Source of the DNA: Haliotis rufescens
Lineage: Eukaryota
Length of the DNA stretch: 64,000 bases
NCBI RefSeq assembly: GCF_023055435.1
Contig: NW_025963857.1
Location: 23,312,001 to 23,376,000, forward strand
Reading direction: 5' to 3'
Below, in pieces: positions 31,076 to 53,931 of the stretch (position 1 is its first letter; every line of letters starts with the position of its first letter). The notes beneath the pieces were generated by a model that searched no databases, was not told the DNA's origin, and saw only the letters and a program-made list of their open reading frames with translations. The translations under genes were made by a program, and so were the position numbers.

Positions 31076-31607
31076 ATGTCTCATTGTCGTTCATTTTCAA
31101 GGACAGCGCACACATTTGCATTTCAATACAGTGCACACTGTCTACCCCTTGATACCGTCAATGACTGCTTTGACAAAAATTGACACGCCTGCTTATTTGT
31201 TTCGCTGCATGTTTTTAAAAAGCAAATTGAAATACAGACAGCCAATTCCAGATATTATGGTACTTCAAATGGCCATCAAACCCTTTCCTGGCAGCCCAAA
31301 GGATACATTCCTGTGAAACATGAACTCGGGTAAGTGACATTTGGTGGGAGATATATCAAGCATAAAATCCCTCCTCTTATCATCATGTCCGGTTTCTTCA
31401 GGAACTTAATAGCACATTTCAGTAGTTGATATCTTAGCTAGCAGTAAAACGCAATATCATTGAAGTGTGCTTGGATATTGGTCGACAATACGTACTATGT
31501 CCAGAGTTTACAATATGGAGAAACATAGATCACTCTTCCATTGTGAACATTCAATTCAGATTAAGATTGTCAAACAAATTTCAAGGCGTAAATAAATATG
31601 ACAAGAT

Positions 31608-31613
31608 TTTATT
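31608..31613 (-). terminator. Polyadenylation signal AATAAA of the Gly-rich gene (present in every unit)
   Basis: AATAAA about 65 nt after the TGA, followed by a T-rich tract. Confidence 0.7.
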
Positions 31614-31678
31614 GAACCAATTCCATTGGTTTGAGAAAATACATAAATAGCCAGCATCACATGGCAGGTGATAATAAC

Positions 31679-32268
31679 TCAATAATAGCCGATACCTGAA
31701 ACAAAAAAATAGTAGAATAAAGTTGGGATGTATGGATAAGTCACAACGAAGTCTTGAAACTAGCTGCATGATAAACTATACCAAATATTAGAGAAAGCAG
31801 AGAATAGTTTTAAAGATGTTTTGTAAATGTCATCAGCTTTGTCGCTGAAAATAGTAATACCACATAGGTAAATTATACAATTTTGCAAACGAGACTGGAG
31901 GTATATTTACGGATACGATAAACAAATGATATCATATTTTGTGAAATACCTTTTCCCAATCCAATTCCGTATCCTCCCATTCCGTAGAGACCACCATAGC
32001 CTCCAAGTCCACCGTATAGACCTCCCATGCCTCCGTATAGACCTCCCATGCCTCCGTATAGACCTCCCATGCCTCCGTATAGACCTCCATAGCCTCCAAG
32101 ACCTCCAAGGCCTCCAAGACCTCCAAGGCCTCCGTACAATCCACCCATTCCGTAGCCAATTCCGCCCAGTCCTCCTTTCAACCCGCCAATTCCACCATAC
32201 AGACCGATAGGCTCGGCAAAGGCGGTAACAGCCAGGCAGGCAACAAGAGCGGCGACTATCTTCATCAT
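31679..32268 (-). CDS. Secreted Gly/Leu/Tyr-rich protein copy 1, 111 aa; join(31679..31695,31950..32268)
   Basis: Signal peptide MMKIVAALVACLAVTAFA; GGLY/GGY/GGM repeats; donor AAAAG|gtattt; acceptor tttgtttcag|GTATCGGCTATTATTGA giving GIGYY*; AATAAA downstream. Confidence 0.88.
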
Positions 32269-32599
32269 TTTGAGTATCTATTGAGTAACGGGAAAATCAT
32301 TGTCAAGAAAGGTAAATAGCATGTTATCGTTACTCATCTGGTAAATTCAGTTCACACCACTCATTGTGAATTATGTTATCAGTTTTACTTTCCCCCGCAT
32401 TCATATATTTCCCAATTTACAAGAACGTTTTATGTTAAATATTCGTACTTTTATAAATTGGCTCAACATGAAGATTGAAAACAGCCAGATGCGCAGCAGA
32501 TAAATCAAAAATTAAAAGTATACATATATATCACAAGCAAACCTTAAAATAGTACTTGCAGTTTGGTCTTTACTCGTATCTGTGTCTCAACGGTAGGTG

Positions 32600-32643
32600 A
32601 AGATAAGAGATGATGGAACAGTTTCCCCCGTCCTTTATATATA
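32600..32643 (-). promoter_or_regulatory. TATA box and initiator-like site of the Gly-rich gene (present in every unit); implies a short non-coding exon 1
   Basis: TATATATAAAG at 32643-32633; TCATCT about 30 nt downstream; acceptor caatag| at 32278, 9 nt before the ATG. The exon 1 donor is ambiguous (GA|gtaaag ~32572, CT|gcaagt ~32559 or AA|gtacta ~32555). Confidence 0.65.
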
Positions 32644-32919
32644 CCATTTGTGAATTTTACGTGATTGATTTACCTTGGGCTGGCCACTTCCAGGTAAGTA
32701 ACGCACCTCAGCTTCATGGTGTAAAGTAAGCATTCTTTTCGCATCAAAGGGCCCGAGGTTATCACCCTACGGGTACACATGCGAGCTGGTATTCATGAAC
32801 ATCGATTAAGGAAGTACAAGACAACGTATATAAAGGTGGCAAACAGACACACTCTCTCTGGCATCGTCTAACTGCATTTCAAACAGTCCTCGATACTCAA
32901 TGTTTAACCTATATTATTT

Positions 32920-33086
32920 AGGGGCGGTCGGGTAGCCTAGTGGTTAAAGTGTTCGCTCGTTACGCCGAAGACACGGGTTCGATTTCCGACATGGGTACAA
33001 TGTGTGTAGCCCATTGCTGGTGTCCCCCGCCGTGATATTGCTGGAAAATTGCTAAAAGCGGCGTAAAACCATACTCACTCACTCAC
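32920..33086 (+). mobile_element. Short tRNA-derived SINE upstream of the Gly-rich gene promoter (also at 37369, 41824, 46279, 50734, 55207, 59662)
   Basis: Same family as 12280; 14-bp TSD tttaacctatatta. Confidence 0.92.
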
Positions 33087-33692
33087 TTTAACCTATATTA
33101 AGTGAATATTCGATAATGGTCTGAAAAGTGTGTATTCAGTAAATATATGATGTGGGAGCAACATACATCAGACATTATAATGCATCTGTGTGATACGACA
33201 TAACATGAGACCAGAAAACTGACGCAACACACCAGTACAGCCTCGCCACAGTACAGCAGTAGCACTGTACCACACGAGGTCAACTATGCTAACCGTTTCC
33301 GTGTAATACAGCAGCCTGCTCACAAGAAAATAGCTTCTGCTGAATATACTGCAGAAGTCCCCAGATACTACATTATTCTCCCCGAATTTTATTTATCTTA
33401 CTGCACAATAACTATAAACTACAACAGCTTTATTTCCTAACTGAAAGGGACATATATTGGTTTCTTCTCACAAAGGGACTGTCACTATGAATACTCACAA
33501 CAACGTTTTATGTGTGTAGTATCTGTTAAAAGCCGAAAGTACACCAGTGTCTTCTGAAAACATGATTGACATATGAACAACAGCTTGTTTTCTCGTCTTT
33601 GATGACTTGTCTTTGTATGTGTTTGTGACGGTGGAACCGATGGGGCAGGATACGCTTACTTTTTGGCAACCGCCCGGTATCATCACTATCTG

Positions 33693-33958
33693 GTTGGTTA
33701 GTTGGTTGGTTGGTTGTTTAACGCCGCACTCAGCAATATTCCTGCTATTATATGACGGCGGTCTGTAAATAATCGAGTCTGGACCAGACAATCCAGTGAT
33801 TAAAATCATTAGCATCGATCCACGCAATTAGGATCGATGACATGCATCAACCAAGTCAGCGAGCCTGACCACCCGATCCCGTTAGTCGCCTTTTACGACA
33901 AGCATAGTCACCTTTTACGGCAAGCATGGGTTGCTGAAGACCCATTCTACCCCGGAAT
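33693..33958 (-). mobile_element. Headless SINE-like copy inside each array unit (also ~38142, 42597, 47052, 51507, 55980, 60435), inserted in a PLE 3'-UTR remnant (33600-34020, + strand)
   Basis: 9-bp TSD cactatctg; the rejoined flanks match the reverse complement of the 10200-10445 PLE 3' motif. Confidence 0.88.
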
Positions 33959-36111
33959 CCACTATCTGATAGTCATTCATACGCACATGCTGTGATCATT
34001 ATAGTCGGAATCGTACAATGGCCTCTGCTTCGAGCAGAGCTTTCGAATGATTCTGAAAAGGGTTTTGTGGCGTTTATTTGCAACTGCGTTTCTTGAGAGA
34101 ACTCTCTTATCTTCAACATATCATCTTGATAATTGTACACTTCATTATCAAGGAATTTGTGATAATACGAGCATCACTAAATTTGATATCTCAATTTTTA
34201 TAGATAACGCCTGAATATTGATATAATAATCATTCAATGATGACCCTTTAACTACATAAATCGTCAACGCCAGAGAATATTCAGGCTCGATTATCTGTTG
34301 AAACAGATTTCATTGGGTGTAAAAGGCAAGATTGTGCTAAAATGTATACTGAATATCAGTGATGTCACCAGGTGTTAGTGAATAGTTCATATTTGTTGGA
34401 TGTTTCATGAGCTCCTCCGTCCGTTCCATCGTGTGCCAAATTGGGAGAATGTTGTCTTTTGACAATGTCTCAGCCATTCATACTTTTGCATATATACTTA
34501 ATCACTGTTGCAAATAACTCACTTTAACGTGTTTTAATCTTCGGCTGAGTCTTAGGTTGTAAACATTAGAAGAAAGTATATAAATCGTCTCTACCCTTTA
34601 CGTATGCCCTTGACATTATGAAGCAGTAGTGATAGTGATGATTGTGTTCTTTCAAGGCGTGTTTAGACCAAAACTCTTACCAAGAATAAAACACGCGCAA
34701 ATCAGTTTGACAATGTGTAACTATATAAGGGTTGCCCAGAAAAACCGTACATCTAAAAGTAAAGGCGTGTGTTTTCAGAAGAAAATGCTCTTAAAGTATA
34801 ACACAGAGGTGTTTTCAAAGATAGACATGATCAAACGACTTGTTTTTACAGTCTGGTTGTTGTTATAAAGACTTATGACACGCTTTAAAGTTGGACCATT
34901 TATTCCGCTGAATTTCACTCTCTACAGTTACCAAATGCAATCTCCTTTGTATTGATAAATGATTGTCACTTCTGCTTTGTAATCAAACAATAGGGATATA
35001 TTAGCTATTTGTTTGTTCATTGTAATCTTCAATCCTACCAATCCAGTTCGGAATCTTCAAATTCGCGCTCTGATTTAATCAATATGTATTTTACAAATAG
35101 CGCCTACAGGGAAGGTGGTTAGTAAACACACAACTAAATATCTATATAGATACTTCTCCTATTAATTACATAAGCAGTATGCAAAATGTTAAATTGCATC
35201 ATCAAATCAAGAAGTACATGTTTGATGGAAATTACAAATAATTCGTAGTTTGATAAGCTATACCCGGACAAGCGTATTTAATAGTTACTTTTGAATTCAA
35301 TCGTTTTGTTTGTGTAATTGATAAACTGTAAAGATATGTTATTGTCATGGAAATTCCAACTGTATGCATTCCCTTCTAACCAAAGCAGTAAGAATCTTGC
35401 AACATTTGTTTTGATGCTCTACATCACTATGGCTTTCGGGTTTGTTTTATTGCAGCAGCTCAGATATTATTTATACAAAGCGCCATAACAACATGTAGAT
35501 TGTATTCTGAATACAACTTTCGCTCATTTTCAAGGACAGCGCACACATTTGCATTTCAATACAGTGCACACTGTCTACCCCTTGATACCGTCAATGACTG
35601 CTTTGACAAAAATTGACACGCCTGCTTATTTGTTTCGCTGCATGTTTTTAAAATGCAAATTGAAATACAGACAGCCAATTCCAGATATTATGGTACTTCA
35701 AATGGCCATCAAACCCTTTCCTGGCAGCCCAAATGAAACATTCCCGTGAAACATGAACTCGGGTAAGTGACATTTGGTGGGAGATATATCAAGCATAAAA
35801 TCCGTCCTCTTATCATCATGTCCGGTTTCCTCAGGAACTTAATAGCACTTTTCAGTAGTTGATATCTTACCTAGCAGTAAAACGCAATATCATTGAAGTG
35901 TGCTTGGATATTGGTCGACAACACGTACTATGTCCAGAGTTTACAATATGAAGAAACATTGATCACTCTTCCATTGTGAACATTCAATTCAGATTAAGAT
36001 TTTCAAACAAATTTCAAGGCGTAAATAAATATGACAAGATTTTATTGAACCAATTCCATTGGTTTGAGAAAATACATAAATAGCCAGCATCACACTGCAG
36101 GTGATAATAAC

Positions 36112-36716
36112 TCAATAATAGCCGATACCTGAAACAAAAAAATAGTAGAATAAAGTTGGGATGTATGGATAAGTCACAACGAAGTCTTGAAACTAGCTGC
36201 ATGATAAACTATACCAAATATTAGAGAAAGCAGAGAATAGTTTTAAAGATGTTTTGTAAATGTCATCAGCTTTGTCGCGGAAAATAGTAATACCACATAG
36301 GTAAATTATGCAATTTTGCAAACGAGACTGGAGGTACATTTACGGATACGATAAACAAATGATATCATATTTTGTGAAATACCTTTTCCCAATCCAATTC
36401 CGTATCCTCCCATTCCGTAGAGACCACCATAGCCCCCGAGTCCTCCGTACAGACCTCCCATGCCGTATCCGTATTTGCCTCCGTATAGACCTCCCATGCC
36501 TCCGTATAGACCTCCCATGCCTCCGTATAGACCTCCATAGCCTCCAAGACCTCCAAGGCCTCCAAGACCTCCAAGGCCTCCGTACAATCCACCCATTCCG
36601 TAGCCAATTCCGCCCAGTCCTCCTTTCAACCCGCCAATTCCACCATACAGACCGATAGGCTCGGCAAAGGCGGTAACAGCCAGGCAGGCAACAAGAGCGG
36701 CGACTATCTTCATCAT
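36112..36716 (-). CDS. Secreted Gly/Leu/Tyr-rich protein copy 2, 116 aa; join(36112..36128,36383..36716)
   Basis: As copy 1, with extra KYGYG; splice sites intact. Confidence 0.88.
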
Positions 36717-39700
36717 TTTGAGTATCTATTGAGTAACGGGAAAATCATTGTCAAGAAAGGTAAAATAGCATGTTATCGTTACTCATCTGGTAAATTCAGT
36801 TCACACCACTCATTGTGAATTATGTTATCAGTTTTGCTTTCACCCGCATTCATATATTTCTCAATTTACAAGAACGTCTTATGTTACATATTCGGACTTT
36901 TATGAATTGGCTCAACATAAAGATTGAAAACAGCCTGATGCGCAGCAGATGAATCAAAAATTAAAAGTATACATATATATCACAAGCAAAATTTCAATTA
37001 GTACTTGCAGTTTGGTCTTTACTCGTATCTGTGTCTCAACGGCAGGTGAAGATAAGAGATGATGGAACAGTTTCCCCCGTCCTTTATATATACCATTTGT
37101 GAATTATACGTGATTGATTTACCTTGGGCTGGCCACTTCCAGGTAAGTAACGCACCTCAGCTTAATGGTGTAAAGTAAGCATTCTTTTCGCATCAAAGGG
37201 CCCGAGGTTATCACCCTACGGGTACACATGCGAGCTGGTATTCATGAACATCGATTAAGGAAGTACAAGACAACGTATATAAAGGTGGCAAACAGACACA
37301 CTCTCTCTGGCATCGTCTAACTGCATTTCAAACAGTCCTCGATACTCAATGTTTAACCTATATTATTTAGGGGCGGTCGGGTAGCCTAGTGGTTAAAGCG
37401 TTCGCTCGTTACGCCGAAGACACGGGTTCGATTTCCGACATGGGTACAATGTGTGTAGCCCATTGCTGGTGTCCCCCGCCGTGATATTGCTGGAAAATTG
37501 CTAAAAGCGGCGTAAAACCATACTCACTCACTCACTTTAACCTATATTAAGTGAATATTCGATAATGGTCTGAAAAGTGTGTATTCAGTAAATATATGAT
37601 GTGGGAGCAACATACATCAGACATTATAATGCATCTGTGTGATACGACATAACATGAGACCAGAAAACTGACGCAACACACCAGTACAGCCTCGCCACAG
37701 TACAGCAGTAGCACTGTACCACACGGGGTCAACTATGCTAACCGTTTCCGTGTAATACAGCAGCCTGCTCACAAGAAAATAGCTTCTGCTGAATATACTG
37801 CAGAAGTCCCCAGATACTACATTATTCTCCCCGAATTTTATTTATCTTACTGCACAATAACTATAAACTACAACAGCTTTATTTCCTAACTGAAAGGGAC
37901 ATATATTGGTTTCTTCTCACAAAGGGACTGTCACTATGAATACTCACAACAACGTTTTATGTGTGTAGTATCTGTTAAAAGCCGAAAGTACACCAGTGTC
38001 TTCTGAAAACATGATTGACATATGAACAACAGCTTGTTTTCTCGTCTTTGATGACTTGTCTTTGTATGTGTTTGTGACGGTGGAACCGATGGGGCAGGAT
38101 ACGCTTACTTTTTGGCAACCGCCCGGTATCATCACTATCTGGTTGGTTAGTTGGTTGGTTGGTTGTTTAACGCCGCACTCAGCAATATTCCTGCTATTAT
38201 ATGACGGCGGTCTGTAAATAATCGAGTCTGGACCAGACAATCCATTGATTAAAATCATTAGCATCGATCCACGCAATTAGGATCGATGACATGCATCAAC
38301 CAAGTCAGCGAGCCTGACCACCCGATCCCGTTAGTCGCCTTTTACGACAAGCATAGTCACCTTTTACGGCAAGCATGGGTTGCTGAAGACCTATTCTACC
38401 CCGGAATCCACTATCTGATAGTCATTCATACGCACATGCTGTGATCATTATAGTCGGAATCGTACAATGGCCTCTGCTTCGAGCAGAGCTTTCGAATGAT
38501 TCTGAAAAGGGTTTTGTGGCGTTTATTTGCAACTGCGTTTCTTGAGAGAACTCTCTTATCTTCAACATATCATCTTGATAATTGTACACTTCATTATCAA
38601 GGAATTTGTGATAATACGAGCATCACTAAATTTGATATCTCAATTTCTATAGATAACGCCTGAATATTGATATAATAATCATTCAATGATGACCCTTTAA
38701 CTACATAAATCGTCAACGCCAGAGAATATTCAGGCTCGATTATCTGTTGAAACAGATTTCATTGGGTGTAAAAGGCAAGATTGTGCTAAAATGTATACTG
38801 AATATCAGTGATGTCACCAGGTGTTAGTGAATAGTTCATATTTGTTGGATGTTTCATGAGCTCCTCCGTCCGTTCCATCGTGTGCCAAATTGGGAGAATG
38901 TTGTCTTTTGACAATGTCTCAGCCATTCATACTTTTGCATATATACTTAATCACTGTTGCAAATAACTCACGTTAACGTGTTTTAATCTTCGGCTGAGTC
39001 TTAGGTCGTAAACATTAGAAGAAAGTAAAGAAATCGTCTCTACCCTTTACGTATGCCCTTGACGTCGACATGATGAGGCAGTAGTGATAGTGATGATTGT
39101 GTTCTTTTAAGGCGTGTTTAGACCAAAACTCTTACCAAGAATAAAACACGCGCAAATCAGTTTGACAATGTGTAACTATATAAGGGTTGCCCAGAAAAAC
39201 CGTACATCTAAAAGTAAAGACGTGTGTTTTCAGAAGAAAATGCTCTTAAAGTATAACACAAAGGTGTTTTCAAAGATAGACATGATCAAACGACTTGTTT
39301 TTACAGTCTGGTTGTTGTTATAAAGACTTATGACACGCTTTAAAGTTGGACCATTTATTCCGCTGAATTTCACTCTCTACAGTTACCAAATGCAATCTCC
39401 TTTGTATTGATAAATGATTGTCACTTCTGCTTTGTAATCAAACAATAGGGATATATTAGCTATTTGTTTGTTCATTGTAATCTTCAATCCTACCAATCCA
39501 GTTCGGAATCTTCAAATTCGCGCTCTGATTTAATCAATATGTATTTTACAAATAGCGCCTACAGGGAAGGTGGTTAGTAAACACACAACTAAATATCTAT
39601 ATAGATACTTCTCCTATTAATTACATAAGCAGTATGCAAAATGTTAAATTGCATCATCAAATCAAGAAGTACATGTTTGATGGAAATTACAAATAATTCG

Positions 39701-40566
39701 TAGTTTGATAAGCTATACCCGGACAAGCGTATTTAATAGTTACTTTTGAATTCAATCGTTTTGTTTGTGTAATTGATAAACTGTAAAGATATGTTATTGT
39801 CATGGAAATTCCAACTGTATGCATTCCCTTCTAACCAAAGCAGTAAGAATCTTGCAACATTTGTTTTGATGCTCTACATCACTATGGCTTTCGGGTTTGT
39901 TTTATTGCAGCAGCTCAGATATTATTTATACAAAGCGCCATAACAACATGTAGATTGTATTCTGAATACAACTTTCGCTCATTTTCAAGGACAGCGCACA
40001 CATTTGCATTTCAATACAGTGCACACTGTCTACCCCTTGATACCGTCAATGACTGCTTTGACAAAAATTGACACGCCTGCTTATTTGTTTCGCTGCATGT
40101 TTTTAAAATGCAAATTGAAATACAGACAGCCAATTCCAGATATTATGGTACTTCAAATGGCCATCAAACCCTTTCCTGGCAGCCCAAATGATACATTCCC
40201 GTGAAACATGAACTCGGGTAAGTGACATTTGGTGGGAGATATATCAAGCATAAAATCCCTCCTCTTATCATCATGTCCGGTTTCCTCAGGAACTTAATAG
40301 CACTTTTCAGTAGTTGATATCTTAGCTAGCAGTAAAACGCAATATCATTGAAGTGTGCTTGGATATTGGTCGACAACACGTACTATGTCCAGAGTTTACA
40401 ATATGAAGAAACATTGATCACTCTTCCATTGTGAACATTCAATTCAGATTAAGATTTTCAAACAAATTTCAAGGCGTAAATAAATATGACAAGATTTTAT
40501 TGAACCAGTTCCATTGGTTTGAGAAAATACATAAATAGCCAGCATCACACTGCAGGTGATAATAAC

Positions 40567-41171
40567 TCAATAATAGCCGATACCTGAAACAAAAAAATAG
40601 TAGAATAAAGTTGGGATGTATGGATAAGTCACAACGAAGTCTTGAAACTAGCTGCATGATAAACTATACCAAATATTAGAGAAAGCAGAGAATAGTTTTA
40701 AAGATGTTTTGTAAATGTCATCAGCTTTGTCGCGGAAAATAGTAATACCACATAGGTAAATTATGCAATTTTGCAAACGAGACTGGAGGTACATTTACGG
40801 ATACGATAAACAAATGATATCATATTTTGTGAAATACCTTTTCCCAATCCAATTCCGTATCCTCCCATTCCGTAGAGACCACCATAGCCCCCGAGTCCTC
40901 CGTACAGACCTCCCATGCCGTATCCGTATTTGCCTCCGTATAGACCTCCCATGCCTCCGTATAGACCTCCCATGCCTCCGTATAGACCTCCATAGCCTCC
41001 AAGACCTCCAAGGCCTCCAAGACCTCCAAGGCCTCCGTACAATCCACCCATTCCGTAGCCAATTCCGCCCAGTCCTCCTTTCAACCCGCCAATTCCACCA
41101 TACAGACCGATAGGCTCGGCAAAGGCGGTAACAGCCAGGCAGGCAACAAGAGCGGCGACTATCTTCATCAT
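40567..41171 (-). CDS. Secreted Gly/Leu/Tyr-rich protein copy 3, 116 aa; join(40567..40583,40838..41171)
   Basis: Same protein as copy 2. Confidence 0.88.
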
Positions 41172-44100
41172 TTTGAGTATCTATTGAGTAACGGGAAAAT
41201 CATTGTCAAGAAAGGTAAAATAGCATGTTATCGTTACTCATCTGGTAAATTCAGTTCACACCACTCATTGTGAATTATGTTATCAGTTTTGCTTTCACCC
41301 GCATTCACATATTTCTCAATTTACAAGAACGTCTTATGTTACATATTCGGACTTTTATGAATTGGCTCAACATAAAGATTGAAAACAGCCTGATGCGCAG
41401 CAGATGAATCAAAAATTAAAAGTATACATATATATCACAAGCAAAATTTCAATTAGTACTTGCAGTTTGGTCTTTACTCGTATCTGTGTCTCAACGGCAG
41501 GTGAAGATAAGAGATGATGGAACAGTTTCCCCCGTCCTTTATATATACCATTTGTGAATTATACGTGATTGATTTACCTTGGGCTGGCCACTTCCAGGTA
41601 AGTAACGCACCTCAGCTTAATGGTGTAAAGTAAGCATTCTTTTCGCATCAAAGGGCCCGAGGTTATCACCCTACGGGTACACATGCGAGCTGGTATTCAT
41701 GAACATCGATTAAGGAAGTACAAGACAACGTATATAAAGGTGGCAAACAGACACACTCTCTCTGGCATCGTCTAACTGCATTTCAAACAGTCCTCGATAC
41801 TCAATGTTTAACCTATATTATTTAGGGGCGGTCGGGTAGCCTAGTGGTTAAAGCGTTCGCTCGTTACGCCGAAGACACGGGTTCGATTTCCGACATGGGT
41901 ACAATGTGTGTAGCCCATTGCTGGTGTCCCCCGCCGTGATATTGCTGGAAAATTGCTAAAAGCGGCGTAAAACCATACTCACTCACTCACTTTAACCTAT
42001 ATTAAGTGAATATTCGATAATGGTCTGAAAAGTGTGTATTCAGTAAATATATGATGTGGGAGCAACATACATCAGACATTATAATGCATCTGTGTGATAC
42101 GACATAACATGAGACCAGAAAACTGACGCAACACACCAGTACAGCCTCGCCACAGTACAGCAGTAGCACTGTACCACACGGGGTCAACTATGCTAACCGT
42201 TTCCGTGTAATACAGCAGCCTGCTCACAAGAAAATAGCTTCTGCTGAATATACTGCAGAAGTCCCCAGATACTACATTATTCTCCCCGAATTTTATTTAT
42301 CTTACTGCACAATAACTATAAACTACAACAGCTTTATTTCCTAACTGAAAGGGACATATATTGGTTTCTTCTCACAAAGGGACTGTCACTATGAATACTC
42401 ACAACAACGTTTTATGTGTGTAGTATCTGTTAAAAGCCGAAAGTACACCAGTGTCTTCTGAAAACATGATTGACATATGAACAACAGCTTGTTTTCTCGT
42501 CTTTGATGACTTGTCTTTGTATGTGTTTGTGACGGTGGAACCGATGGGGCAGGATACGCTTACTTTTTGGCAACCGCCCGGTATCATCACTATCTGGTTG
42601 GTTAGTTGGTTGGTTGGTTGTTTAACGCCGCACTCAGCAATATTCCTGCTATTATATGACGGCGGTCTGTAAATAATCGAGTCTGGACCAGACAATCCAT
42701 TGATTAAAATCATTAGCATCGATCCACGCAATTAGGATCGATGACATGCATCAACCAAGTCAGCGAGCCTGACCACCCGATCCCGTTAGTCGCCTTTTAC
42801 GACAAGCATAGTCACCTTTTACGGCAAGCATGGGTTGCTGAAGACCTATTCTACCCCGGAATCCACTATCTGATAGTCATTCATACGCACATGCTGTGAT
42901 CATTATAGTCGGAATCGTACAATGGCCTCTGCTTCGAGCAGAGCTTTCGAATGATTCTGAAAAGGGTTTTGTGGCGTTTATTTGCAACTGCGTTTCTTGA
43001 GAGAACTCTCTTATCTTCAACATATCATCTTGATAATTGTACACTTCATTATCAAGGAATTTGTGATAATACGAGCATCACTAAATTTGATATCTCAATT
43101 TCTATAGATAACGCCTGAATATTGATATAATAATCATTCAATGATGACCCTTTAACTACATAAATCGTCAACGCCAGAGAATATTCAGGCTCGATTATCT
43201 GTTGAAACAGATTTCATTGGGTGTAAAAGGCAAGATTGTGCTAAAATGTATACTGAATATCAGTGATGTCACCAGGTGTTAGTGAATAGTTCATATTTGT
43301 TGGATGTTTCATGAGCTCCTCCGTCCGTTCCATCGTGTGCCAAATTGGGAGAATGTTGTCTTTTGACAATGTCTCAGCCATTCATACTTTTGCATATATA
43401 CTTAATCACTGTTGCAAATAACTCACGTTAACGTGTTTTAATCTTCGGCTGAGTCTTAGGTCGTAAACATTAGAAGAAAGTAAAGAAATCGTCTCTACCC
43501 TTTACGTATGCCCTTGACGTCGACATGATGAGGCAGTAGTGATAGTGATGATTGTGTTCTTTTAAGGCGTGTTTAGACCAAAACTCTTACCAAGAATAAA
43601 ACACGCGCAAATCAGTTTGACAATGTGTAACTATATAAGGGTTGCCCAGAAAAACCGTACATCTAAAAGTAAAGACGTGTGTTTTCAGAAGAAAATGCTC
43701 TTAAAGTATAACACAAAGGTGTTTTCAAAGATAGACATGATCAAACGACTTGTTTTTACAGTCTGGTTGTTGTTATAAAGACTTATGACACGCTTTAAAG
43801 TTGGACCATTTATTCCGCTGAATTTCACTCTCTACAGTTACCAAATGCAATCTCCTTTGTATTGATAAATGATTGTCACTTCTGCTTTGTAATCAAACAA
43901 TAGGGATATATTAGCTATTTGTTTGTTCATTGTAATCTTCAATCCTACCAATCCAGTTCGGAATCTTCAAATTCGCGCTCTGATTTAATCAATATGTATT
44001 TTACAAATAGCGCCTACAGGGAAGGTGGTTAGTAAACACACAACTAAATATCTATATAGATACTTCTCCTATTAATTACATAAGCAGTATGCAAAATGTT

Positions 44101-45021
44101 AAATTGCATCATCAAATCAAGAAGTACATGTTTGATGGAAATTACAAATAATTCGTAGTTTGATAAGCTATACCCGGACAAGCGTATTTAATAGTTACTT
44201 TTGAATTCAATCGTTTTGTTTGTGTAATTGATAAACTGTAAAGATATGTTATTGTCATGGAAATTCCAACTGTATGCATTCCCTTCTAACCAAAGCAGTA
44301 AGAATCTTGCAACATTTGTTTTGATGCTCTACATCACTATGGCTTTCGGGTTTGTTTTATTGCAGCAGCTCAGATATTATTTATACAAAGCGCCATAACA
44401 ACATGTAGATTGTATTCTGAATACAACTTTCGCTCATTTTCAAGGACAGCGCACACATTTGCATTTCAATACAGTGCACACTGTCTACCCCTTGATACCG
44501 TCAATGACTGCTTTGACAAAAATTGACACGCCTGCTTATTTGTTTCGCTGCATGTTTTTAAAATGCAAATTGAAATACAGACAGCCAATTCCAGATATTA
44601 TGGTACTTCAAATGGCCATCAAACCCTTTCCTGGCAGCCCAAATGATACATTCCCGTGAAACATGAACTCGGGTAAGTGACATGTGGTGGGAGATATATC
44701 AAGCATAAAATCCCTCCTCTTATCATCATGTCCGGTTTCCTCAGGAACTTAATAGCACTTTTCAGTAGTTGATATCTTAGCTAGCAGTAAAACGCAATAT
44801 CATTGAAGTGTGCTTGGATATTGGTCGACAACACGTACTATGTCCAGAGTTTACAATATGAAGAAACATTGATCACTCTTCCATTGTGAACATTCAATTC
44901 AGATTAAGATTTTCAAACAAATTTCAAGGCGTAAATAAATATGACAAGATTTTATTGAACCAGTTCCATTGGTTTGAGAAAATACATAAATAGCCAGCAT
45001 CACACTGCAGGTGATAATAAC

Positions 45022-45626
45022 TCAATAATAGCCGATACCTGAAACAAAAAAATAGTAGAATAAAGTTGGGATGTATGGATAAGTCACAACGAAGTCTTGA
45101 AACTAGCTGCATGATAAACTATACCAAATATTAGAGAAAGCAGAGAATAGTTTTAAAGATGTTTTGTAAATGTCATCAGCTTTGTCGCGGAAAATAGTAA
45201 TACCACATAGGTAAATTATGCAATTTTGCAAACGAGACTGGAGGTACATTTACGGATACGATAAACAAATGATATCATATTTTGTGAAATACCTTTTCCC
45301 AATCCAATTCCGTATCCTCCCATTCCGTAGAGACCACCATAGCCCCCGAGTCCTCCGTACAGACCTCCCATGCCGTATCCGTATTTGCCTCCGTATAGAC
45401 CTCCCATGCCTCCGTATAGACCTCCCATGCCTCCGTATAGACCTCCATAGCCTCCAAGACCTCCAAGGCCTCCAAGACCTCCAAGGCCTCCGTACAATCC
45501 ACCCATTCCGTAGCCAATTCCGCCCAGTCCTCCTTTCAACCCGCCAATTCCACCATACAGACCGATAGGCTCGGCAAAGGCGGTAACAGCCAGGCAGGCA
45601 ACAAGAGCGGCGACTATCTTCATCAT
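45022..45626 (-). CDS. Secreted Gly/Leu/Tyr-rich protein copy 4, 116 aa; join(45022..45038,45293..45626)
   Basis: Same protein as copy 2. Confidence 0.88.
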
Positions 45627-48600
45627 TTTGAGTATCTATTGAGTAACGGGAAAATCATTGTCAAGAAAGGTAAAATAGCATGTTATCGTTACTCATCTGG
45701 TAAATTCAGTTCACACCACTCATTGTGAATTATGTTATCAGTTTTGCTTTCACCCGCATTCATATATTTCTCAATTTACAAGAACGTCTTATGTTACATA
45801 TTCGGACTTTTATGAATTGGCTCAACATAAAGATTGAAAACAGCCTGATGCGCAGCAGATGAATCAAAAATTAAAAGTATACATATATATCACAAGCAAA
45901 ATTTCAATTAGTACTTGCAGTTTGGTCTTTACTCGTATCTGTGTCTCAACGGCAGGTGAAGATAAGAGATGATGGAACAGTTTCCCCCGTCCTTTATATA
46001 TACCATTTGTGAATTATACGTGATTGATTTACCTTGGGCTGGCCACTTCCAGGTAAGTAACGCACCTCAGCTTAATGGTGTAAAGTAAGCATTCTTTTCG
46101 CATCAAAGGGCCCGAGGTTATCACCCTACGGGTACACATGCGAGCTGGTATTCATGAACATCGATTAAGGAAGTACAAGACAACGTATATAAAGGTGGCA
46201 AACAGACACACTCTCTCTGGCATCGTCTAACTGCATTTCAAACAGTCCTCGATACTCAATGTTTAACCTATATTATTTAGGGGCGGTCGGGTAGCCTAGT
46301 GGTTAAAGCGTTCGCTCGTTACGCCGAAGACACGGGTTCGATTTCCGACATGGGTACAATGTGTGTAGCCCATTGCTGGTGTCCCCCGCCGTGATATTGC
46401 TGGAAAATTGCTAAAAGCGGCGTAAAACCATACTCACTCACTCACTTTAACCTATATTAAGTGAATATTCGATAATGGTCTGAAAAGTGTGTATTCAGTA
46501 AATATATGATGTGGGAGCAACATACATCAGACATTATAATGCATCTGTGTGATACGACATAACATGAGACCAGAAAACTGACGCAACACACCAGTACAGC
46601 CTCGCCACAGTACAGCAGTAGCACTGTACCACACGGGGTCAACTATGCTAACCGTTTCCGTGTAATACAGCAGCCTGCTCACAAGAAAATAGCTTCTGCT
46701 GAATATACTGCAGAAGTCCCCAGATACTACATTATTCTCCCCGAATTTTATTTATCTTACTGCACAATAACTATAAACTACAACAGCTTTATTTCCTAAC
46801 TGAAAGGGACATATATTGGTTTCTTCTCACAAAGGGACTGTCACTATGAATACTCACAACAACGTTTTATGTGTGTAGTATCTGTTAAAAGCCGAAAGTA
46901 CACCAGTGTCTTTTGAAAACATGATTGACATATGAACAACAGCTTGTTTTCTCGTCTTTGATGACTTGTCTTTGTATGTGTTTGTGACGGTGGAACCGAT
47001 GGGGCAGGATACGCTTACTTTTTGGCAACCGCCCGGTATCATCACTATCTGGTTGGTTAGTTGGTTGGTTGGTTGTTTAACGCCGCACTCAGCAATATTC
47101 CTGCTATTATATGACGGCGGTCTGTAAATAATCGAGTCTGGACCAGACAATCCATTGATTAAAATCATTAGCATCGATCCACGCAATTAGGATCGATGAC
47201 ATGCATCAACCAAGTCAGCGAGCCTGACCACCCGATCCCGTTAGTCGCCTTTTACGACAAGCATAGTCACCTTTTACGGCAAGCATGGGTTGCTGAAGAC
47301 CTATTCTACCCCGGAATCCACTATCTGATAGTCATTCATACGCACATGCTGTGATCATTATAGTCGGAATCGTACAATGGCCTCTGCTTCGAGCAGAGCT
47401 TTCGAATGATTCTGAAAAGGGTTTTGTGGCGTTTATTTGCAACTGCGTTTCTTGAGAGAACTCTCTTATCTTCAACATATCATCTTGATAATTGTACACT
47501 TCATTATCAAGGAATTTGTGATAATACGAGCATCACTAAATTTGATATCTCAATTTCTATAGATAACGCCTGAATATTGATATAATAATCATTCAATGAT
47601 GACCCTTTAACTACATAAATCGTCAACGCCAGAGAATATTCAGGCTCGATTATCTGTTGAAACAGATTTCATTGGGTGTAAAAGGCAAGATTGTGCTAAA
47701 ATGTATACTGAATATCAGTGATGTCACCAGGTGTTAGTGAATAGTTCATATTTGTTGGATGTTTCATGAGCTCCTCCGTCCGTTCCATCGTGTGCCAAAT
47801 TGGGAGAATGTTGTCTTTTGACAATGTCTCAGCCATTCATACTTTTGCATATATACTTAATCACTGTTGCAAATAACTCACGTTAACGTGTTTTAATCTT
47901 CGGCTGAGTCTTAGGTCGTAAACATTAGAAGAAAGTAAAGAAATCGTCTCTACCCTTTACGTATGCCCTTGACGTCGACATGATGAGGCAGTAGTGATAG
48001 TGATGATTGTGTTCTTTTAAGGCGTGTTTAGACCAAAACTCTTACCAAGAATAAAACACGCGCAAATCAGTTTGACAATGTGTAACTATATAAGGGTTGC
48101 CCAGAAAAACCGTACATCTAAAAGTAAAGACGTGTGTTTTCAGAAGAAAATGCTCTTAAAGTATAACACAAAGGTGTTTTCAAAGATAGACATGATCAAA
48201 CGACTTGTTTTTACAGTCTGGTTGTTGTTATAAAGACTTATGACACGCTTTAAAGTTGGACCATTTATTCCGCTGAATTTCACTCTCTACAGTTACCAAA
48301 TGCAATCTCCTTTGTATTGATAAATGATTGTCACTTCTGCTTTGTAATCAAACAATAGGGATATATTAGCTATTTGTTTGTTCATTGTAATCTTCAATCC
48401 TACCAATCCAGTTCGGAATCTTCAAATTCGCGCTCTGATTTAATCAATATGTATTTTACAAATAGCGCCTACAGGGAAGGTGGTTAGTAAACACACAACT
48501 AAATATCTATATAGATACTTCTCCTATTAATTACATAAGCAGTATGCAAAATGTTAAATTGCATCATCAAATCAAGAAGTACATGTTTGATGGAAATTAC

Positions 48601-49476
48601 AAATAATTCGTAGTTTGATAAGCTATACCCGGACAAGCGTATTTAATAGTTACTTTTGAATTCAATCGTTTTGTTTGTGTAATTGATAAACTGTAAAGAT
48701 ATGTTATTGTCATGGAAATTCCAACTGTATGCATTCCCTTCTAACCAAAGCAGTAAGAATCTTGCAACATTTGTTTTGATGCTCTACATCACTATGGCTT
48801 TCGGGTTTGTTTTATTGCAGCAGCTCAGATATTATTTATACAAAGCGCCATAACAACATGTAGATTGTATTCTGAATACAACTTTCGCTCATTTTCAAGG
48901 ACAGCGCACACATTTGCATTTCAATACAGTGCACACTGTCTACCCCTTGATACCGTCAATGACTGCTTTGACAAAAATTGACACGCCTGCTTATTTGTTT
49001 CGCTGCATGTTTTTAAAATGCAAATTGAAATACAGACAGCCAATTCCAGATATTATGGTACTTCAAATGGCCATCAAACCCTTTCCTGGCAGCCCAAATG
49101 ATACATTCCCGTGAAACATGAACTCGGGTAAGTGACATTTGGTGGGAGATATATCAAGCATAAAATCCCTCCTCTTATCATCATGTCCGGTTTCCTCAGG
49201 AACTTAATAGCACTTTTCAGTAGTTGATATCTTAGCTAGCAGTAAAACGCAATATCATTGAAGTGTGCTTGGATATTGGTCGACAACACGTACTATGTCC
49301 AGAGTTTACAATATGAAGAAACATTGATCACTCTTCCATTGTGAACATTCAATTCAGATTAAGATTTTCAAACAAATTTCAAGGCGTAAATAAATATGAC
49401 AAGATTTTATTGAACCAGTTCCATTGGTTTGAGAAAATACATAAATAGCCAGCATCACACTGCAGGTGATAATAAC

Positions 49477-50081
49477 TCAATAATAGCCGATACCTGAAAC
49501 AAAAAAATAGTAGAATAAAGTTGGGATGTATGGATAAGTCACAACGAAGTCTTGAAACTAGCTGCATGATAAACTATACCAAATATTAGAGAAAGCAGAG
49601 AATAGTTTTAAAGATGTTTTGTAAATGTCATCAGCTTTGTCGCGGAAAATAGTAATACCACATAGGTAAATTATGCAATTTTGCAAACGAGACTGGAGGT
49701 ACATTTACGGATACGATAAACAAATGATATCATATTTTGTGAAATACCTTTTCCCAATCCAATTCCGTATCCTCCCATTCCGTAGAGACCACCATAGCCC
49801 CCGAGTCCTCCGTACAGACCTCCCATGCCGTATCCGTATTTGCCTCCGTATAGACCTCCCATGCCTCCGTATAGACCTCCCATGCCTCCGTATAGACCTC
49901 CATAGCCTCCAAGACCTCCAAGGCCTCCAAGACCTCCAAGGCCTCCGTACAATCCACCCATTCCGTAGCCAATTCCGCCCAGTCCTCCTTTCAACCCGCC
50001 AATTCCACCATACAGACCGGTAGGCTCGGCAAAGGCGGTAACAGCCAGGCAGGCAACAAGAGCGGCGACTATCTTCATCAT
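49477..50081 (-). CDS. Secreted Gly/Leu/Tyr-rich protein copy 5, 116 aa (I21T); join(49477..49493,49748..50081)
   Basis: As copy 2 with EPTG instead of EPIG. Confidence 0.88.
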
Positions 50082-53000
50082 TTTGAGTATCTATTGAGTA
50101 ACGGGAAAATCATTGTCAAGAAAGGTAAAATAGCATGTTATCGTTACTCATCTGGTAAATTCAGTTCACACCACTCATTGTGAATTATGTTATCAGTTTT
50201 GCTTTCACCCGCATTCATATATTTCTCAATTTACAAGAACGTCTTATGTTACATATTCGGACTTTTATGAATTGGCTCAACATAAAGATTGAAAACAGCC
50301 TGATGCGCAGCAGATGAATCAAAAATTAAAAGTATACATATATATCACAAGCAAAATTTAAATTAGTACTTGCAGTTTGGTCTTTACTCGTATCTGTGTC
50401 TCAACGGCAGGTGAAGATAAGAGATGATGGAACAGTTTCCCCCGTCCTTTATATATACCATTTGTGAATTATACGTGATTGATTTACCTTGGGCTGGCCA
50501 CTTCCAGGTAAGTAACGCACCTCAGCTTAATGGTGTAAAGTAAGCATTCTTTTCGCATCAAAGGGCCCGAGGTTATCACCCTACGGGTACACATGCGAGC
50601 TGGTATCCATGAACATCGATTAAGGAAGTACAAGACAACGTATATAAAGGTGGCAAACAGACACACTCTCTCTGGCATCGTCTAACTGCATTTCAAACAG
50701 TCCTCGATACTCAATGTTTAACCTATATTATTTAGGGGCGGTCGGGTAGCCTAGTGGTTAAAGCGTTCGCTCGTTACGCCGAAGACACGGGTTCGATTTC
50801 CGACATGGGTACAATGTGTGTAGCCCATTGCTGGTGTCCCCCGCCGTGATATTGCTGGAAAATTGCTAAAAGCGGCGTAAAACCATACTCACTCACTCAC
50901 TTTAACCTATATTAAGTAAATATTCGATAATGGTCTGAAAAGTGTGTATTCAGTAAATATATGATGTGGGAGCAACATACATCAGACATTATAATGCATC
51001 TGTGTGATACGACATAACATGAGACCAGAAAACTGACGCAACACACCAGTACAGCCTCGCCACAGTACAGCAGTAGCACTGTACCACACGGGGTCAACTA
51101 TGCTAACCGTTTCCGTGTAATACAGCAGCCTGCTCACAAGAAAATAGCTTCTGCTGAATATACTGCAGAAGTCCCCAGATACTACATTATTCTCCCCGAA
51201 TTTTATTTATCTTACTGCACAATAACTATAAACTACAACAGCTTTATTTCCTAACTGAAAGGGACATATATTGGTTTCTTCTCACAAAGGGACTGTCACT
51301 ATGAATACTCACAACAACGTTTTATGTGTGTAGTATCTGTTAAAAGCCGAAAGTACACCAGTGTCTTCTGAAAACATGATTGACATATGAACAACAGCTT
51401 GTTTTCTCGTCTTTGATGACTTGTCTTTGTATGTGTTTGTGACGGTGGAACCGATGGGGCAGGATACGCTTACTTTTTGGCAACCGCCCGGTATCATCAC
51501 TATCTGGTTGGTTAGTTGGTTGGTTGGTTGTTTAACGCCGCACTCAGCAATATTCCTGCTATTATATGACGGCGGTCTGTAAATAATCGAGTCTGGACCA
51601 GACAATCCATTGATTAAAATCATTAGCATCGATCCACGCAATTAGGATCGATGACATGCATCAACCAAGTCAGCGAGCCTGACCACCCGATCCCGTTAGT
51701 CGCCTTTTACGACAAGCATAGTCACCTTTTACGGCAAGCATGGGTTGCTGAAGACCTATTCTACCCCGGAATCCACTATCTGATAGTCATTCATACGCAC
51801 ATGCTGTGATCATTATAGTCGGAATCGTACAATGGCCTCTGCTTCGAGCAGAGCTTTCGAATGATTCTGAAAAGGGTTTTGTGGCGTTTATTTGCAACTG
51901 CGTTTCTTGAGAGAACTCTCTTATCTTCAACATATCATCTTGATAATTGTACACTTCATTATCAAGGAATTTGTGATAATACGAGCATCACTAAATTTGA
52001 TATCTCAATTTTTATAGATAACGCCTGAATATTGATATAATAATCATTCAATGATGACCCTTTAACTACATAAATCGTCAACGCCAGAGAATATTCAGGC
52101 TCGATTATCTGTTGAAACAGATTTCATTGGGTGTAAAAGGCAGGATTGTGCTAAAATGTATACTGAATATCAGTGATGTCACCAGGTGTTAGTGAATAGT
52201 TCATATTTGTTGGATGTTTCATGAGCTCCTCCGTCCGTTCCATCGTGTGCCAAATTGGGAGAATGTTGTCTTTTGACAATGTCTCAGCCATTCATACTTT
52301 TGCATATATACTTAATCACTGTTGCAAATAACTCACGTTAACGTGTTTTAATCTTCGGCTGAGTCTTAGGTCGTAAACATTAGAAGAAAGTAAAGAAATC
52401 GTCTCTACCCTTTACGTATGCCCTTGACGTCGACATGATGAAGCAGTAGTGATAGTGATGATTGTGTTCTTTTAAGGCGTGTTTAGACCAAAACTCTTAC
52501 CAAGAATAAAACACGCGCAAATCAGTTTGACAATGTGTAACTATATAAGGGTTGCCCAGAAAAACCGTACATCTAAAAGTAAAGACGTGTGTTTTCAGAA
52601 GAAAATGCTCTTAAAGTATAACACAAAGGTGTTTTCAAAGATAGACATGATCAAACGACTTGTTTTTACAGTCTGGTTGTTGTTATAAAGACTTATGACA
52701 CGCTTTAAAGTTGGACCATTTATTCCGCTGAATTTCACTCTCTACAGTTACCAAATGCAATCTCCTTTGTATTGATAAATGATTGTCACTTCTGCTTTGT
52801 AATCAAACAATAGGGATATATTAGCTATTTGTTTGTTCATTGTAATCTTCAATCCTACCAATCCAGTTCGGAATCTTCAAATTCGCGCTCTGATTTAATC
52901 AATATGTATTTTACAAATAGCGCCTACAGGGAAGGTGGTTAGTAAACACACAACTAAATATCTATATAGATACTTCTCCTATTAGTTACATAAGCAGTAT

Positions 53001-53931
53001 GCAAAATGTTAAATTGCATCATCAAATCAAGAAGTACATGTTTGATGGAAATTACAAATAATTCGTAGTTTGATAAGCTATACCCGGACAAGCGTATTTA
53101 ATAGTTACTTTTGAATTCAATCGTTTTGTTTGTGTAATTGATAAACTGTAAAGATATGTTATTGTCATGGAAATTCCAACTGTATGCATTCCCTTCTAAC
53201 CAAAGCAGTAAGAATCTTGCAACATTTGTTTTGATGCTCTACATCACTATGGCTTTCGGGTTTGTTTTATTGCAGCAGCTCAGATATTATTTATACAAAG
53301 CGCCATAACAACATGTAGATTGTATTCTGAATACAACTTTCGCTCATTTTCAAGGACAGCGCACACATTTGCATTTCAATACAGTGCACACTGTCTACCC
53401 CTTGATACCGTCAATGACTGCTTTGACAAAAATTGACACGCCTGCTTATTTGTTTCGCTGCATGTTTTTAAAATGCAAATTGAAATACAGACAGCCAATT
53501 CCAGATATTATGGTACTTCAAATGGCCATCAAACCCTTTCCTGGCAGCCCAAATGATACATTCCCGTGAAACATGAACTCGGGTAAGTGACATTTGGTGG
53601 GAGATATATCAAGCATAAAATCCCTCCTCTTATCATCATGTCCGGTTTCCTCAGGAACTTAATAGCACATTTCAGTAGTTGATATCTTACCTAGCAGTAA
53701 AACGCAATATCATTGAAGTGTGCTTGGATATTGGTCGACAACACGTACTATGTCCAGAGTTTACAATATGGAGAAACATAGATCACTCTTCCATTGTGAA
53801 CATTCAATTCAGATTAAGATTTTCAAACAAATTTCAAGGCGTAAATAAATATGACAAGATTTTATTGAACCAATTCCATTGGTTTGAGAAAATACATAAA
53901 TAGCCAGCATCACACTGCAGGTGATAATAAC

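What the first reader, a model, noticed from the sequence alone, without database searches (positions are those of the whole stretch)
36112..36716. Mature protein uses a minimal alphabet and resembles the Gly-rich modules of suckerins and shematrins
Seen: predicted mature chain of copy 2 is 98 aa with 53 G, 15 Y, 15 L, 5 M, 5 I, 3 K, 1 E, 1 P and no Cys, Ala, Ser, His or Asp. It is built from GGLYGGM (21-bp) and GGL (9-bp) repeats. Known: GGY/GGLY repeats form the Gly-rich modules of cephalopod suckerins; Gly/Tyr repeats typify pearl-oyster shematrins and insect chorion proteins; GGL/GGY repeats also occur in spider Gly-rich antimicrobial peptides. This protein lacks the suckerin Pro-flanked Ala/Thr/His modules and the shematrin RKKKY-type tail. 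Inference: a distinct family able to coacervate or self-assemble and cross-link via Tyr (DOPA or dityrosine) and Lys.
Basis: partly seen in the sequence, partly recalled or inferred. Interest (0 to 1): 0.7.

Follow-up and report, generated by a model that had tools for sequence, protein, structure and literature searches.

The report
Amplified abalone glycine-tyrosine shell-skin genes
This abalone genome holds 39 near-identical copies in a row (about 130 family genes in all) of a spliced gene for a tiny glycine-, leucine- and tyrosine-rich protein that is predicted to be secreted and likely hardens by tyrosine cross-links into the organic skin of the larval or juvenile shell.

Summary
Copy 2 encodes a 116-aa precursor whose 98-aa mature chain is G53 L15 Y15 I5 M5 K3 E1 P1. 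This depends on a 254-nt intron, which contigs of three probable RNA runs bridge and a Haliotis asinina relative confirms. The gene is one of 39 intact, 97-99% identical 4.45-kb units; the genome holds about 130 family genes, and arrays homogenised within each species occur in other abalones. It is not a suckerin, shematrin or KRMP: their defining modules are missing. [quoted passage not shown] New here: a 60-nt promoter block with ETS-like and Pbx/Hox-like sites is conserved between distant paralogues; limpet shell-field cells express Hox1, Pbx, an ETS factor and Gly/Met-rich proteins. Best reading: a dosage-amplified scleroprotein precursor for the larval pellicle or periostracum, cross-linked through tyrosine (0.55). 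Tissue, translation, cross-linking and coacervation are untested.

The parts
31087..64000 (-). Window part of a tandem array of ~4.45-kb units (8 genes in the window; 39 in all, to G000:C79:23,542,126)
37135..37141 (-). ETS-like site (YGGAAGT; name recalled) in the conserved promoter block of copy 2
37111..37118 (-). Pbx/Hox-like site (ATCAATCA; name recalled), present in 39 of 39 copies
37085..37092 (-). TATA box
37009..37060 (-). Exon 1, non-coding; the upstream end is estimated from the TATA box and from contig cover
   Evidence: joint 36725 to 37009; cover to the bin ending 37074
36726..37008 (-). Intron 1, 283 nt, GC..AG; the sister copies examined on C24 and C190 have GT at the same place
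   Evidence: (X1, X3; short sides of 18 and 25 letters)
36663..36716 (-). Predicted signal peptide, 18 codons (17 from the second Met)
   Evidence: hydropathy; 16 of 18 identical in H. asinina P0002
36383..36662 (-). Gly/Leu/Tyr-rich mature region in exon 2, with 9-nt and 21-nt repeats and the Lys that is invariant in the family alignment just before the intron
36129..36382 (-). Intron 2, 254 nt, GT..AG, phase 1
36112..36128 (-). Coding part of exon 3: last five residues, ending Tyr-Tyr, and the stop
36041..36046 (-). Polyadenylation signal AATAAA
31679..32268 (-). Copy 1 (111 aa), end unit of the array
40567..41171 (-). Copy 3 (116 aa)
45022..45626 (-). Copy 4 (116 aa)
49477..50081 (-). Copy 5 (116 aa)
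53932..54554 (-). Copy 6 (122 aa, two extra GGL units)
58405..59009 (-). Copy 7 (116 aa)
62860..63464 (-). Copy 8 (116 aa)
32915..33087 (.). Dispersed repeat (SINE-like) in the spacer of the C79 unit, absent from the C24 units examined
33695..33959 (.). Second dispersed repeat (SINE-like) in the spacer of the C79 unit, absent at that place from the C24 units examined

Best explanation
A spliced abalone gene, held in 39 near-identical tandem copies here and about 130 family genes in the genome, encodes a predicted secreted 9-kDa Gly/Leu/Tyr protein that likely serves as a bulk precursor of the shell's organic outer sheet (larval pellicle or periostracum) and would be hardened outside the cell by tyrosine cross-links. 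Shown: gene structure, splicing, intact and homogenised arrays, conservation across abalones, a conserved promoter block. Inferred: (1) the arrays are a dosage device, letting few cells make much protein quickly; (2) the block is bound by ETS and Pbx/Hox factors, which would place expression in shell-field or mantle-edge cells; (3) the almost uncharged, Gly-rich chain stays flexible and packs through Leu/Met/Tyr contacts after secretion; (4) a peroxidase or tyrosinase then links Gly-flanked tyrosines (dityrosine or quinone tanning), with the conserved Lys and the terminal Tyr-Tyr as likely partners, giving an insoluble sheet on which mineral is laid.
For: Splicing of both introns in contigs of probable RNA runs. 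39 of 39 frames open, all length variants whole 9- or 21-nt-type in-frame changes, units 97-100% identical. 129 matches among 138 candidates in the genome plus 9 loci on C591. RefSeq chimeras with 16 (H. asinina; 15 identical units) and 7 (H. cracherodii) fused copies show arrays homogenised per species. Summed contig depth on the coding exon was 2e5-1.4e6 in X1 and X3 against 2-14 in X2 and X9, while the same four runs gave 39,000-46,000 on a dispersed repeat: a hint of very high, sample-restricted output, since the tool calls depth a poor measure. 13 of 15 Tyr are followed by Gly; net charge about +1 at pH 8.1. Promoter block conserved between the window gene and 4 of 4 C190 minus-strand paralogues (z 5.8-7.1 against shuffles, TATA excluded; 20 other windows z -1.2 to 2.6; intron 1 at background). 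Limpet trochophore shell-field cells express Hox1, Pbx and Meis (cluster 4), the ETS factor Ese and tyrosinase (cluster 8) and Gly/Met-rich proteins (bioRxiv 10.1101/2024.05.16.592602). Has-tsfgr1, of like size and make-up, is expressed in shell field and mantle edge; the H. asinina larval shell calcifies between 9 and 11 h (PMC2034539). Lymnaea Gly/Tyr/Leu-rich sfc-6/7/8 are made beside a peroxidase zone at the mantle edge (PMC6007483).
Against: No tissue or stage label was available for any run, and no protein evidence exists. The family's motifs are absent from all 27 supplementary files of the H. laevigata adult shell proteome (PMC6003135; a motif broken by a line end could be missed) and the family is not among the two silk-like proteins found in adult H. 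asinina mantle ESTs (PMC4944945): this argues against the adult mineral layers and adult mantle. Orthology to Has-tsfgr1 was not found. The promoter block is not conserved in the C1 subfamily (ETS-like site only) or the C190 plus-strand genes' own proximal promoters, and was not located for C591; the site names are recalled, the motif was noticed before it was tested, and ATCAATCA also fits other homeodomain factors. Similar small Gly/Tyr/Leu proteins build unrelated structures in other animals.
Confidence: 0.55

Rival explanations
1. Same kind of tanned structural protein, but for another cuticular part: radula or jaw matrix, larval operculum, gill skeletal rods, odontophore cartilage or gastric shield. 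Continuous turnover (the radula above all) would explain the arrays.
For: Composition and predicted secretion fit any scleroprotein. Missing from the adult shell proteome and adult mantle screen. The C591 paralogues carry GGLGY repeats like lamprey cartilage lamprin (recalled; one weak profile hit bears PF06403).
Against: The only described gastropod genes of this size and make-up are mantle-edge or shell-field genes; the conserved promoter sites match factors of shell-field cells.
Confidence: 0.28
2. A non-cross-linked, self-assembling matrix or mucus protein that works like the amorphous M2 modules of suckerins: it would condense or gel through Tyr stacking and hydrophobic contacts.
For: GYG, GGY and GGLY motifs are the M2 building blocks, and the suckerin peptide GLYGGYGV forms beta-sheets (PMC11931252); GLYG occurs 7 times here.
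Against: No His or other pH switch, no M1 crystalline module, one Pro. The conserved Lys and terminal tyrosines are better explained by covalent linking (inference). Self-assembly may precede cross-linking, so this is only a rival if no cross-links form.
Confidence: 0.1
3. A glycine-rich antimicrobial peptide like spider ctenidins, amplified for defence.
For: GGL repeats, small size, predicted signal peptide; an automatic RefSeq name 'ctenidin-1-like' on the H. rubra relative.
Against: Net charge only about +1 at pH 8.1. Copies are homogenised, not diversified: 12 protein variants among 39 copies, differing mostly in repeat number. The RefSeq names for one family range from ctenidin to shematrin, spidroin and PE-PGRS, so they reflect composition only.
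Confidence: 0.05
4. The array is largely an assembly artefact or passive satellite expansion of one ordinary gene.
For: Units are 97-100% identical; read depth of genomic DNA was not checked.
Against: Variants change in blocks along the array and three different mobile elements interrupt it; all 39 frames are open; independent arrays exist on C24 and C1 and in two other species.
Confidence: 0.02

Closest known systems
[quoted passage not shown]
   Same: 114 aa against 116; 17-residue signal against 18 (17 from the second Met); over 52% Gly against 54%; Gly/Leu/Tyr repeats; short tail ending in Tyr.
   Different: Its motif GGYGLGL and tail GYKGY are absent from the window protein; the H. asinina orthologues of the window gene (P0002, P0015 units) are other proteins. 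No direct alignment was possible. No array or promoter was described for tsfgr1.
Unnamed Haliotis RefSeq models (H. asinina XP_067657837-842, 846-849, 799, 820; H. rubra XP_046565582; H. cracherodii XP_071095135, 146, 156)
   Same: Same family: signal peptide, YGGMGGLYGGKYGYG block and last 13 residues shared with P0002.
   Different: Uncharacterised, automatically named; several are chimeras of neighbouring copies (346, 979 and 1967 aa).
Lymnaea stagnalis Lstag-sfc-6, -7, -8 (PMC6007483)
   Same: Secreted Gly/Tyr/Leu-rich low-complexity proteins with Gly-flanked Tyr, proposed peroxidase substrates for the periostracum.
   Different: Also Asn-rich; no sequence homology tested; no amplification reported in the passages read.
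Shematrins and KRMPs of pearl oysters (as defined in PMC3896809)
   Same: GnY repeats followed by a hydrophobic residue, terminal Tyr, small size (KRMP).
   Different: No RKKKY/RRKY-type tail, no Lys/Trp domain, no hit in any homology search.
Suckerins (as defined in PMC11931252)
   Same: The mature chain resembles a run of M2 modules.
   Different: No Ala/Thr/Ser/His M1 module, no P[M1]P[M2] pattern, no His.
Dosage arrays of structural-protein genes (insect chorion clusters, feather and claw keratin clusters, histone repeats; recalled)
   Same: Many homogenised copies of a short gene; head-to-head pairs with a shared promoter region on C190, as in silkmoth chorion pairs (recalled).
   Different: No homology; no amplification in tissue shown.

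Membership tests
Suckerin | Gly/Leu/Tyr-rich M2 motifs (GYG, GGY, GGLY, GLGGY) | tested here: met
   definition from PMC11931252
Suckerin | Ala/Val/Thr/Ser/His-rich M1 modules | tested here: not met
   none of A, V, T, S, H in the mature chain of copy 2
Suckerin | Pro-flanked P[M1]P[M2] tandem pattern | tested here: not met
   one Pro, at mature position 2
Shematrin | GnY repeats followed by a hydrophobic residue; terminal Tyr | tested here: met
Shematrin | Basic C-terminal signature (RKKKY, RRKKY, RRRKY, PRKKY) | tested here: not met
   tail is GKGIGYY; definition
Shematrin | Sequence homology to Pinctada shematrins | tested here: inconclusive
   no Pinctada hit, but low-complexity scoring and capped candidate lists limit these searches
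KRMP | Lys/Trp domain after the signal peptide | tested here: not met
   no Trp, three scattered Lys; definition
Has-tsfgr1 orthologue | About 114 aa, 17-aa signal, over 52% Gly, Gly/Leu/Tyr repeats, Tyr-terminal tail | tested here: met
Has-tsfgr1 orthologue | Eleven repeats of GGYGLGL | tested here: not met
   none in the window protein; one in C591 paralogues; no GGYGLGLGGYG-coding match in the genome
Has-tsfgr1 orthologue | C-terminal GYKGY | tested here: not met
   window tail differs; 12 genome matches against 26 in the control, none beside a Gly-rich frame
Has-tsfgr1 orthologue | Expression in shell field and juvenile mantle edge | not testable with these tools
   runs carry no tissue label
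His-rich coacervating beak proteins | GHGXY pentapeptides as pH switch | tested here: not met
   no His in copy 2; definition
Ctenidin-type antimicrobial peptides (features recalled) | Gly-rich GGL repeats behind a signal peptide | tested here: met
Ctenidin-type antimicrobial peptides (features recalled) | Clearly cationic, haemocyte-stored, antimicrobial | not testable with these tools
   charge only about +1 at pH 8.1; activity and tissue untested
Tanned periostracal scleroprotein precursors (functional class) | Secreted, Gly-rich, Gly-flanked Tyr, Lys near Tyr | tested here: met
   13 of 15 Tyr followed by Gly, GKY motif kept in H. asinina; class described in PMC6007483
Tanned periostracal scleroprotein precursors (functional class) | Present in periostracum with dityrosine or DOPA cross-links | not testable with these tools
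   needs proteomics and chemistry

The most novel reading that the evidence does not exclude
Abalones build the first organic shell sheet from a histone-like, concertedly evolving array of over a hundred genes, fired in a few shell-field cells within hours through a compact promoter bound by Hox1-Pbx and an ETS factor. This would be a direct cis-regulatory link between the conserved shell-field transcription factors and a bulk structural protein, and would name the main protein of the larval pellicle.
Probability: 0.25. Interest if true: 0.75.

Novelty: new variant of a known kind. Interest (0 to 1): 0.5.

Why it matters
The proteins of the gastropod periostracum and larval shell sheet are poorly known because they are insoluble. 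A 98-residue, eight-letter protein is an easy model for tyrosine-cross-linked materials. The arrays give a testable case of gene dosage serving fast shell formation at the stage that matters most for hatchery survival, and the short conserved promoter makes a Hox1/Pbx-to-effector link testable. The family also trips annotation: RefSeq fuses neighbouring copies into false long 'spidroin-like' or 'PE-PGRS-like' proteins.

Tried and rejected
Run search: no RNA holder listed on record; the runs used are guessed to be RNA. Co-expression test: I located the likely orthologue of the mantle-edge gene Has-vm2 from its published motif (G000:C445, L088) and laid X1, X2, X3 and X9 on it. X1 and X3, the runs with deep cover of the array gene, had no cover on its coding exon 2; X2 and X9 had depth 1-12 there. 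Contigs show presence, not absence, so this gave no support for the mantle-edge reading and decides nothing; vm2 is reported to be low in trochophores and down in animals of 20 mm and over. Lustrin family search rang nowhere, controls included. Search for a tsfgr1 orthologue by motif and tail failed; the C591 subfamily has a 17-aa signal and one GGYGLGL but another tail. A search with the single-exon Gly-rich gene at C24:38.78 Mb returned mostly low-complexity noise. Pfam and PDB: nothing. ESM Atlas with P0002: best score 0.80, arthropod cuticle-like clusters, lead level only. AlphaFold2 without alignment: pLDDT 58, pTM 0.35, long helices implausible for 54% Gly; not used and no fold search run. 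Within-array substitutions are too few for a selection test (3 synonymous, 4 non-synonymous changes in 228 nt). My first guess of a GT donor for intron 1 at 37022 was dropped for the GC donor at 37008 that the contigs show. The vm2 upstream region lacks the Pbx-like site. Paper searches: family motifs GGLYGGMG, GLYGGMGG, GKGIGYY, GGLYGGLGG found in no paper, GGYGLGL in two; searches listed no paper whose title or abstract start describes this family or array; PMC13544226 and PMC3517415 passages held nothing on it.

Full report
Observation. The finding covers the coding span of copy 2 of a minus-strand gene (ATG 36716, stop ending 36112). Spliced over a 254-nt GT..AG intron it encodes 116 aa; the 98 residues after the 18-aa leader are G53, L15, Y15, I5, M5, K3, E1, P1, as reported. 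Repeats of 21 and 9 nt are present, though exact GGLYGGM occurs only twice and GGLYGG five times. The mature chain is 9.0 kDa, GRAVY +0.32, charge about +1 at pH 8.1; 13 of 15 tyrosines are followed by Gly. Secretion is predicted from hydropathy and conservation, not from SignalP.

It is a real, spliced gene. Contigs of X1, X3 and X9 (three studies, kind guessed as RNA) skip exactly intron 2; X1 and X3 also join 36725 to 37009, a 283-nt GC..AG intron in the 5' UTR, and the C24 and C190 sister copies examined have GT at that donor. Summed contig depth on the coding exon was 2e5-1.4e6 in X1 and X3, about 1e3 in their introns, and 2-14 in X2 and X9; the four runs were alike (39,000-46,000) on a dispersed repeat. 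The tool warns that contig depth is a poor measure, so this is a hint of very high, sample-restricted output. The tissue could not be established from the runs. There is no protein-level evidence.

The organism is an abalone, by inference from relatives. The first search returned 2 proteins at E <= 0.001 among 7,987 scored, from Haliotis asinina and H. rubra; the full-library search with the H. asinina protein returned 3, all Haliotis. P0002 shares 16 of 18 signal residues, a 15-residue block around the middle Lys and the last 13 residues; the repeat core has drifted. One Gigantopelta protein (E 4e-7 to a paralogue) has a like leader and tail and may extend the family beyond abalones. Beyond that, a family profile picks up only weak, composition-driven hits (E 1e-7 or weaker) from a brachiopod, a mosquito, a spider, bird claw keratins and unnamed records. 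Pfam and PDB give nothing.

The array. The window holds 8 copies of an array of 39 over about 200 kb of C79. All 39 have an open frame; 12 protein variants differ mainly in repeat number; units are 97-100% identical to unit 2; variants change in blocks along the array. Three mobile elements interrupt it. A search with the first 41 residues gave 129 matches among 138 candidates: C79 39, C24 52, C1 22, C190 11, C591 3, C589 1, C423 1; C591 holds 9 loci. Counts are lower bounds. C24 units are 92-96% identical to C79 units and the ones examined lack two SINE-like inserts of the C79 unit, so each array was amplified or homogenised on its own. In the representatives examined from C79, C24, C1, C190 and C591 a phase-1 intron is predicted before the last 3-7 codons and the protein ends in Tyr. 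H. asinina and H. cracherodii have arrays too: RefSeq models of 1967 and 979 aa contain 16 and 7 copies of the leader, and 15 of the 16 H. asinina units are identical. Arrays that persist across species while homogenising within each point to selection for dosage (inference).

The promoter. A block of about 60 nt upstream of the TATA box is conserved between the window gene and all 4 C190 minus-strand paralogues tested (z 5.8-7.1 against shuffles with the TATA excluded; the 20 windows further upstream z -1.2 to 2.6), whereas intron 1 aligns at background. It holds YGGAAGT at -49/-54 and ATCAATCA at -26/-31; from memory these are ETS-type and Pbx/Hox-type sites. ATCAATCA is in 39 of 39 C79 copies and occurs about once per 18 kb of strand in flanking DNA. 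On C190 the block lies between the TATA boxes of head-to-head pairs 230 nt apart. Against: C1 promoters keep only an ETS-like site, the C190 plus-strand proximal promoters do not align, the C591 promoter was not found, and I saw the motif before testing it.

How it likely works. Three published parallels point to the shell edge. Has-tsfgr1 (PMC2034539; abstract, passages, sections 5 and 14 read) is 114 aa, over 52% Gly, built of Gly, Leu and Tyr, ends in Tyr, and is expressed at the trochophore shell-field edge, the veliger mantle edge and the juvenile outer fold, then lost in larger animals; the larval shell calcifies between 9 and 11 h. Lymnaea sfc-6/7/8 (PMC6007483; passages) are secreted Gly/Tyr/Leu/Asn proteins made next to a peroxidase zone and proposed as dityrosine substrates. 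In a limpet trochophore (bioRxiv 10.1101/2024.05.16.592602; passages, sections 14 and 18; supplements closed, so its protein sequences were not seen) Hox1-positive shell-field clusters are marked by Pbx and Meis, or by Ese and tyrosinase, and express Gly/Met-rich proteins; Hox1 in the shell field is general in conchiferans (PMC7878502; passages). I therefore read the gene as a bulk scleroprotein precursor for the larval pellicle or periostracum: made fast from many copies, secreted, packed by hydrophobic and aromatic contacts, then fixed through tyrosine. All steps after transcription are inferred. Confidence is about 0.8 for a cross-linked structural protein and 0.55 for the shell's outer sheet.

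Results against. The family's motifs are in none of 27 supplementary files of the H. laevigata adult shell proteome (PMC6003135; passages and supplements searched; I did not check whether the periostracum had been removed). The silk-like protein screen of adult H. asinina mantle ESTs found two other proteins (PMC4944945; abstract, section 15, 7 supplements). The juvenile mantle EST paper mentions only the GGYGLGL motif (PMC1676022; abstract, sections 4 part 1, 7 and 14; its supplements could not be read and may list family members). These results fit a larval or periostracal role but equally a non-shell organ. Orthology to tsfgr1 is not shown.

Comparison and novelty. It works like the Gly/Tyr-rich mantle-edge proteins, but fails membership of suckerins (no M1, no Pro pattern; PMC11931252, passages), shematrins and KRMPs (no basic tail, no Lys/Trp domain; PMC3896809, passages). 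No paper in the library holds the family's motifs, and seven topic searches listed none describing it; subscription journals are mostly outside this library. The chemistry is of a known kind; the 100-plus-gene homogenised arrays and the conserved promoter are the new part. Two earlier notes of this scan reached the same general reading for other abalone genomes; they are not independent evidence. Verdict: new variant of a known kind, interest 0.5.

Noticed in passing
G000:C79:23403680-23414653: 10,974-nt insertion with terminal inverted repeats and no open frame of 200 aa, inserted in a SINE-like repeat of one array unit.
   Followed up: no
G000:C79:23460123-23467555 and 23525691-23531348: Two further insertions in the array, with open frames resembling a DIRS-type and a LINE-type retrotransposon (types judged by eye).
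   Followed up: no
window 25238-28499 (-): Broken LINE-like reverse transcriptase and endonuclease frames left of the array (identified by eye).
   Followed up: no
G000:C79:23.547-23.563 Mb (L048-L049): Two open frames resembling ligand-gated ion channel (nicotinic receptor-like) extracellular domains right of the array (by eye).
   Followed up: no
L011-L014 (G000:C190:6.878-6.906 Mb): Paralogues in head-to-head pairs whose TATA boxes are 230 nt apart, sharing the conserved promoter block; degraded extra copies lie beside them.
   Followed up: partly
L026:4246-5212 (G000:C24, end copy): The end copy of the C24 array lacks about 135 nt holding the promoter block, TATA box and most of exon 1.
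   Followed up: partly
L051:5270-5740 (G000:C24:38.775 Mb): Single, apparently intron-less Gly/Met/Tyr-rich gene with GGMGGLGY repeats and a related leader.
   Followed up: partly
L088:2198-4001 (G000:C445:61.81 Mb): Likely orthologue of Has-vm2: signal-peptide exon and an exon of 14-residue Pro-rich repeats.
   Followed up: partly
RefSeq XP_067657820, XP_071095156, XP_071095146, XP_071095135: Annotation artefacts: neighbouring array copies fused into long proteins named PE-PGRS-like, spidroin-like or shematrin-like.
   Followed up: yes
window 3784-3940: One run of 157 N, far from the gene.
   Followed up: no
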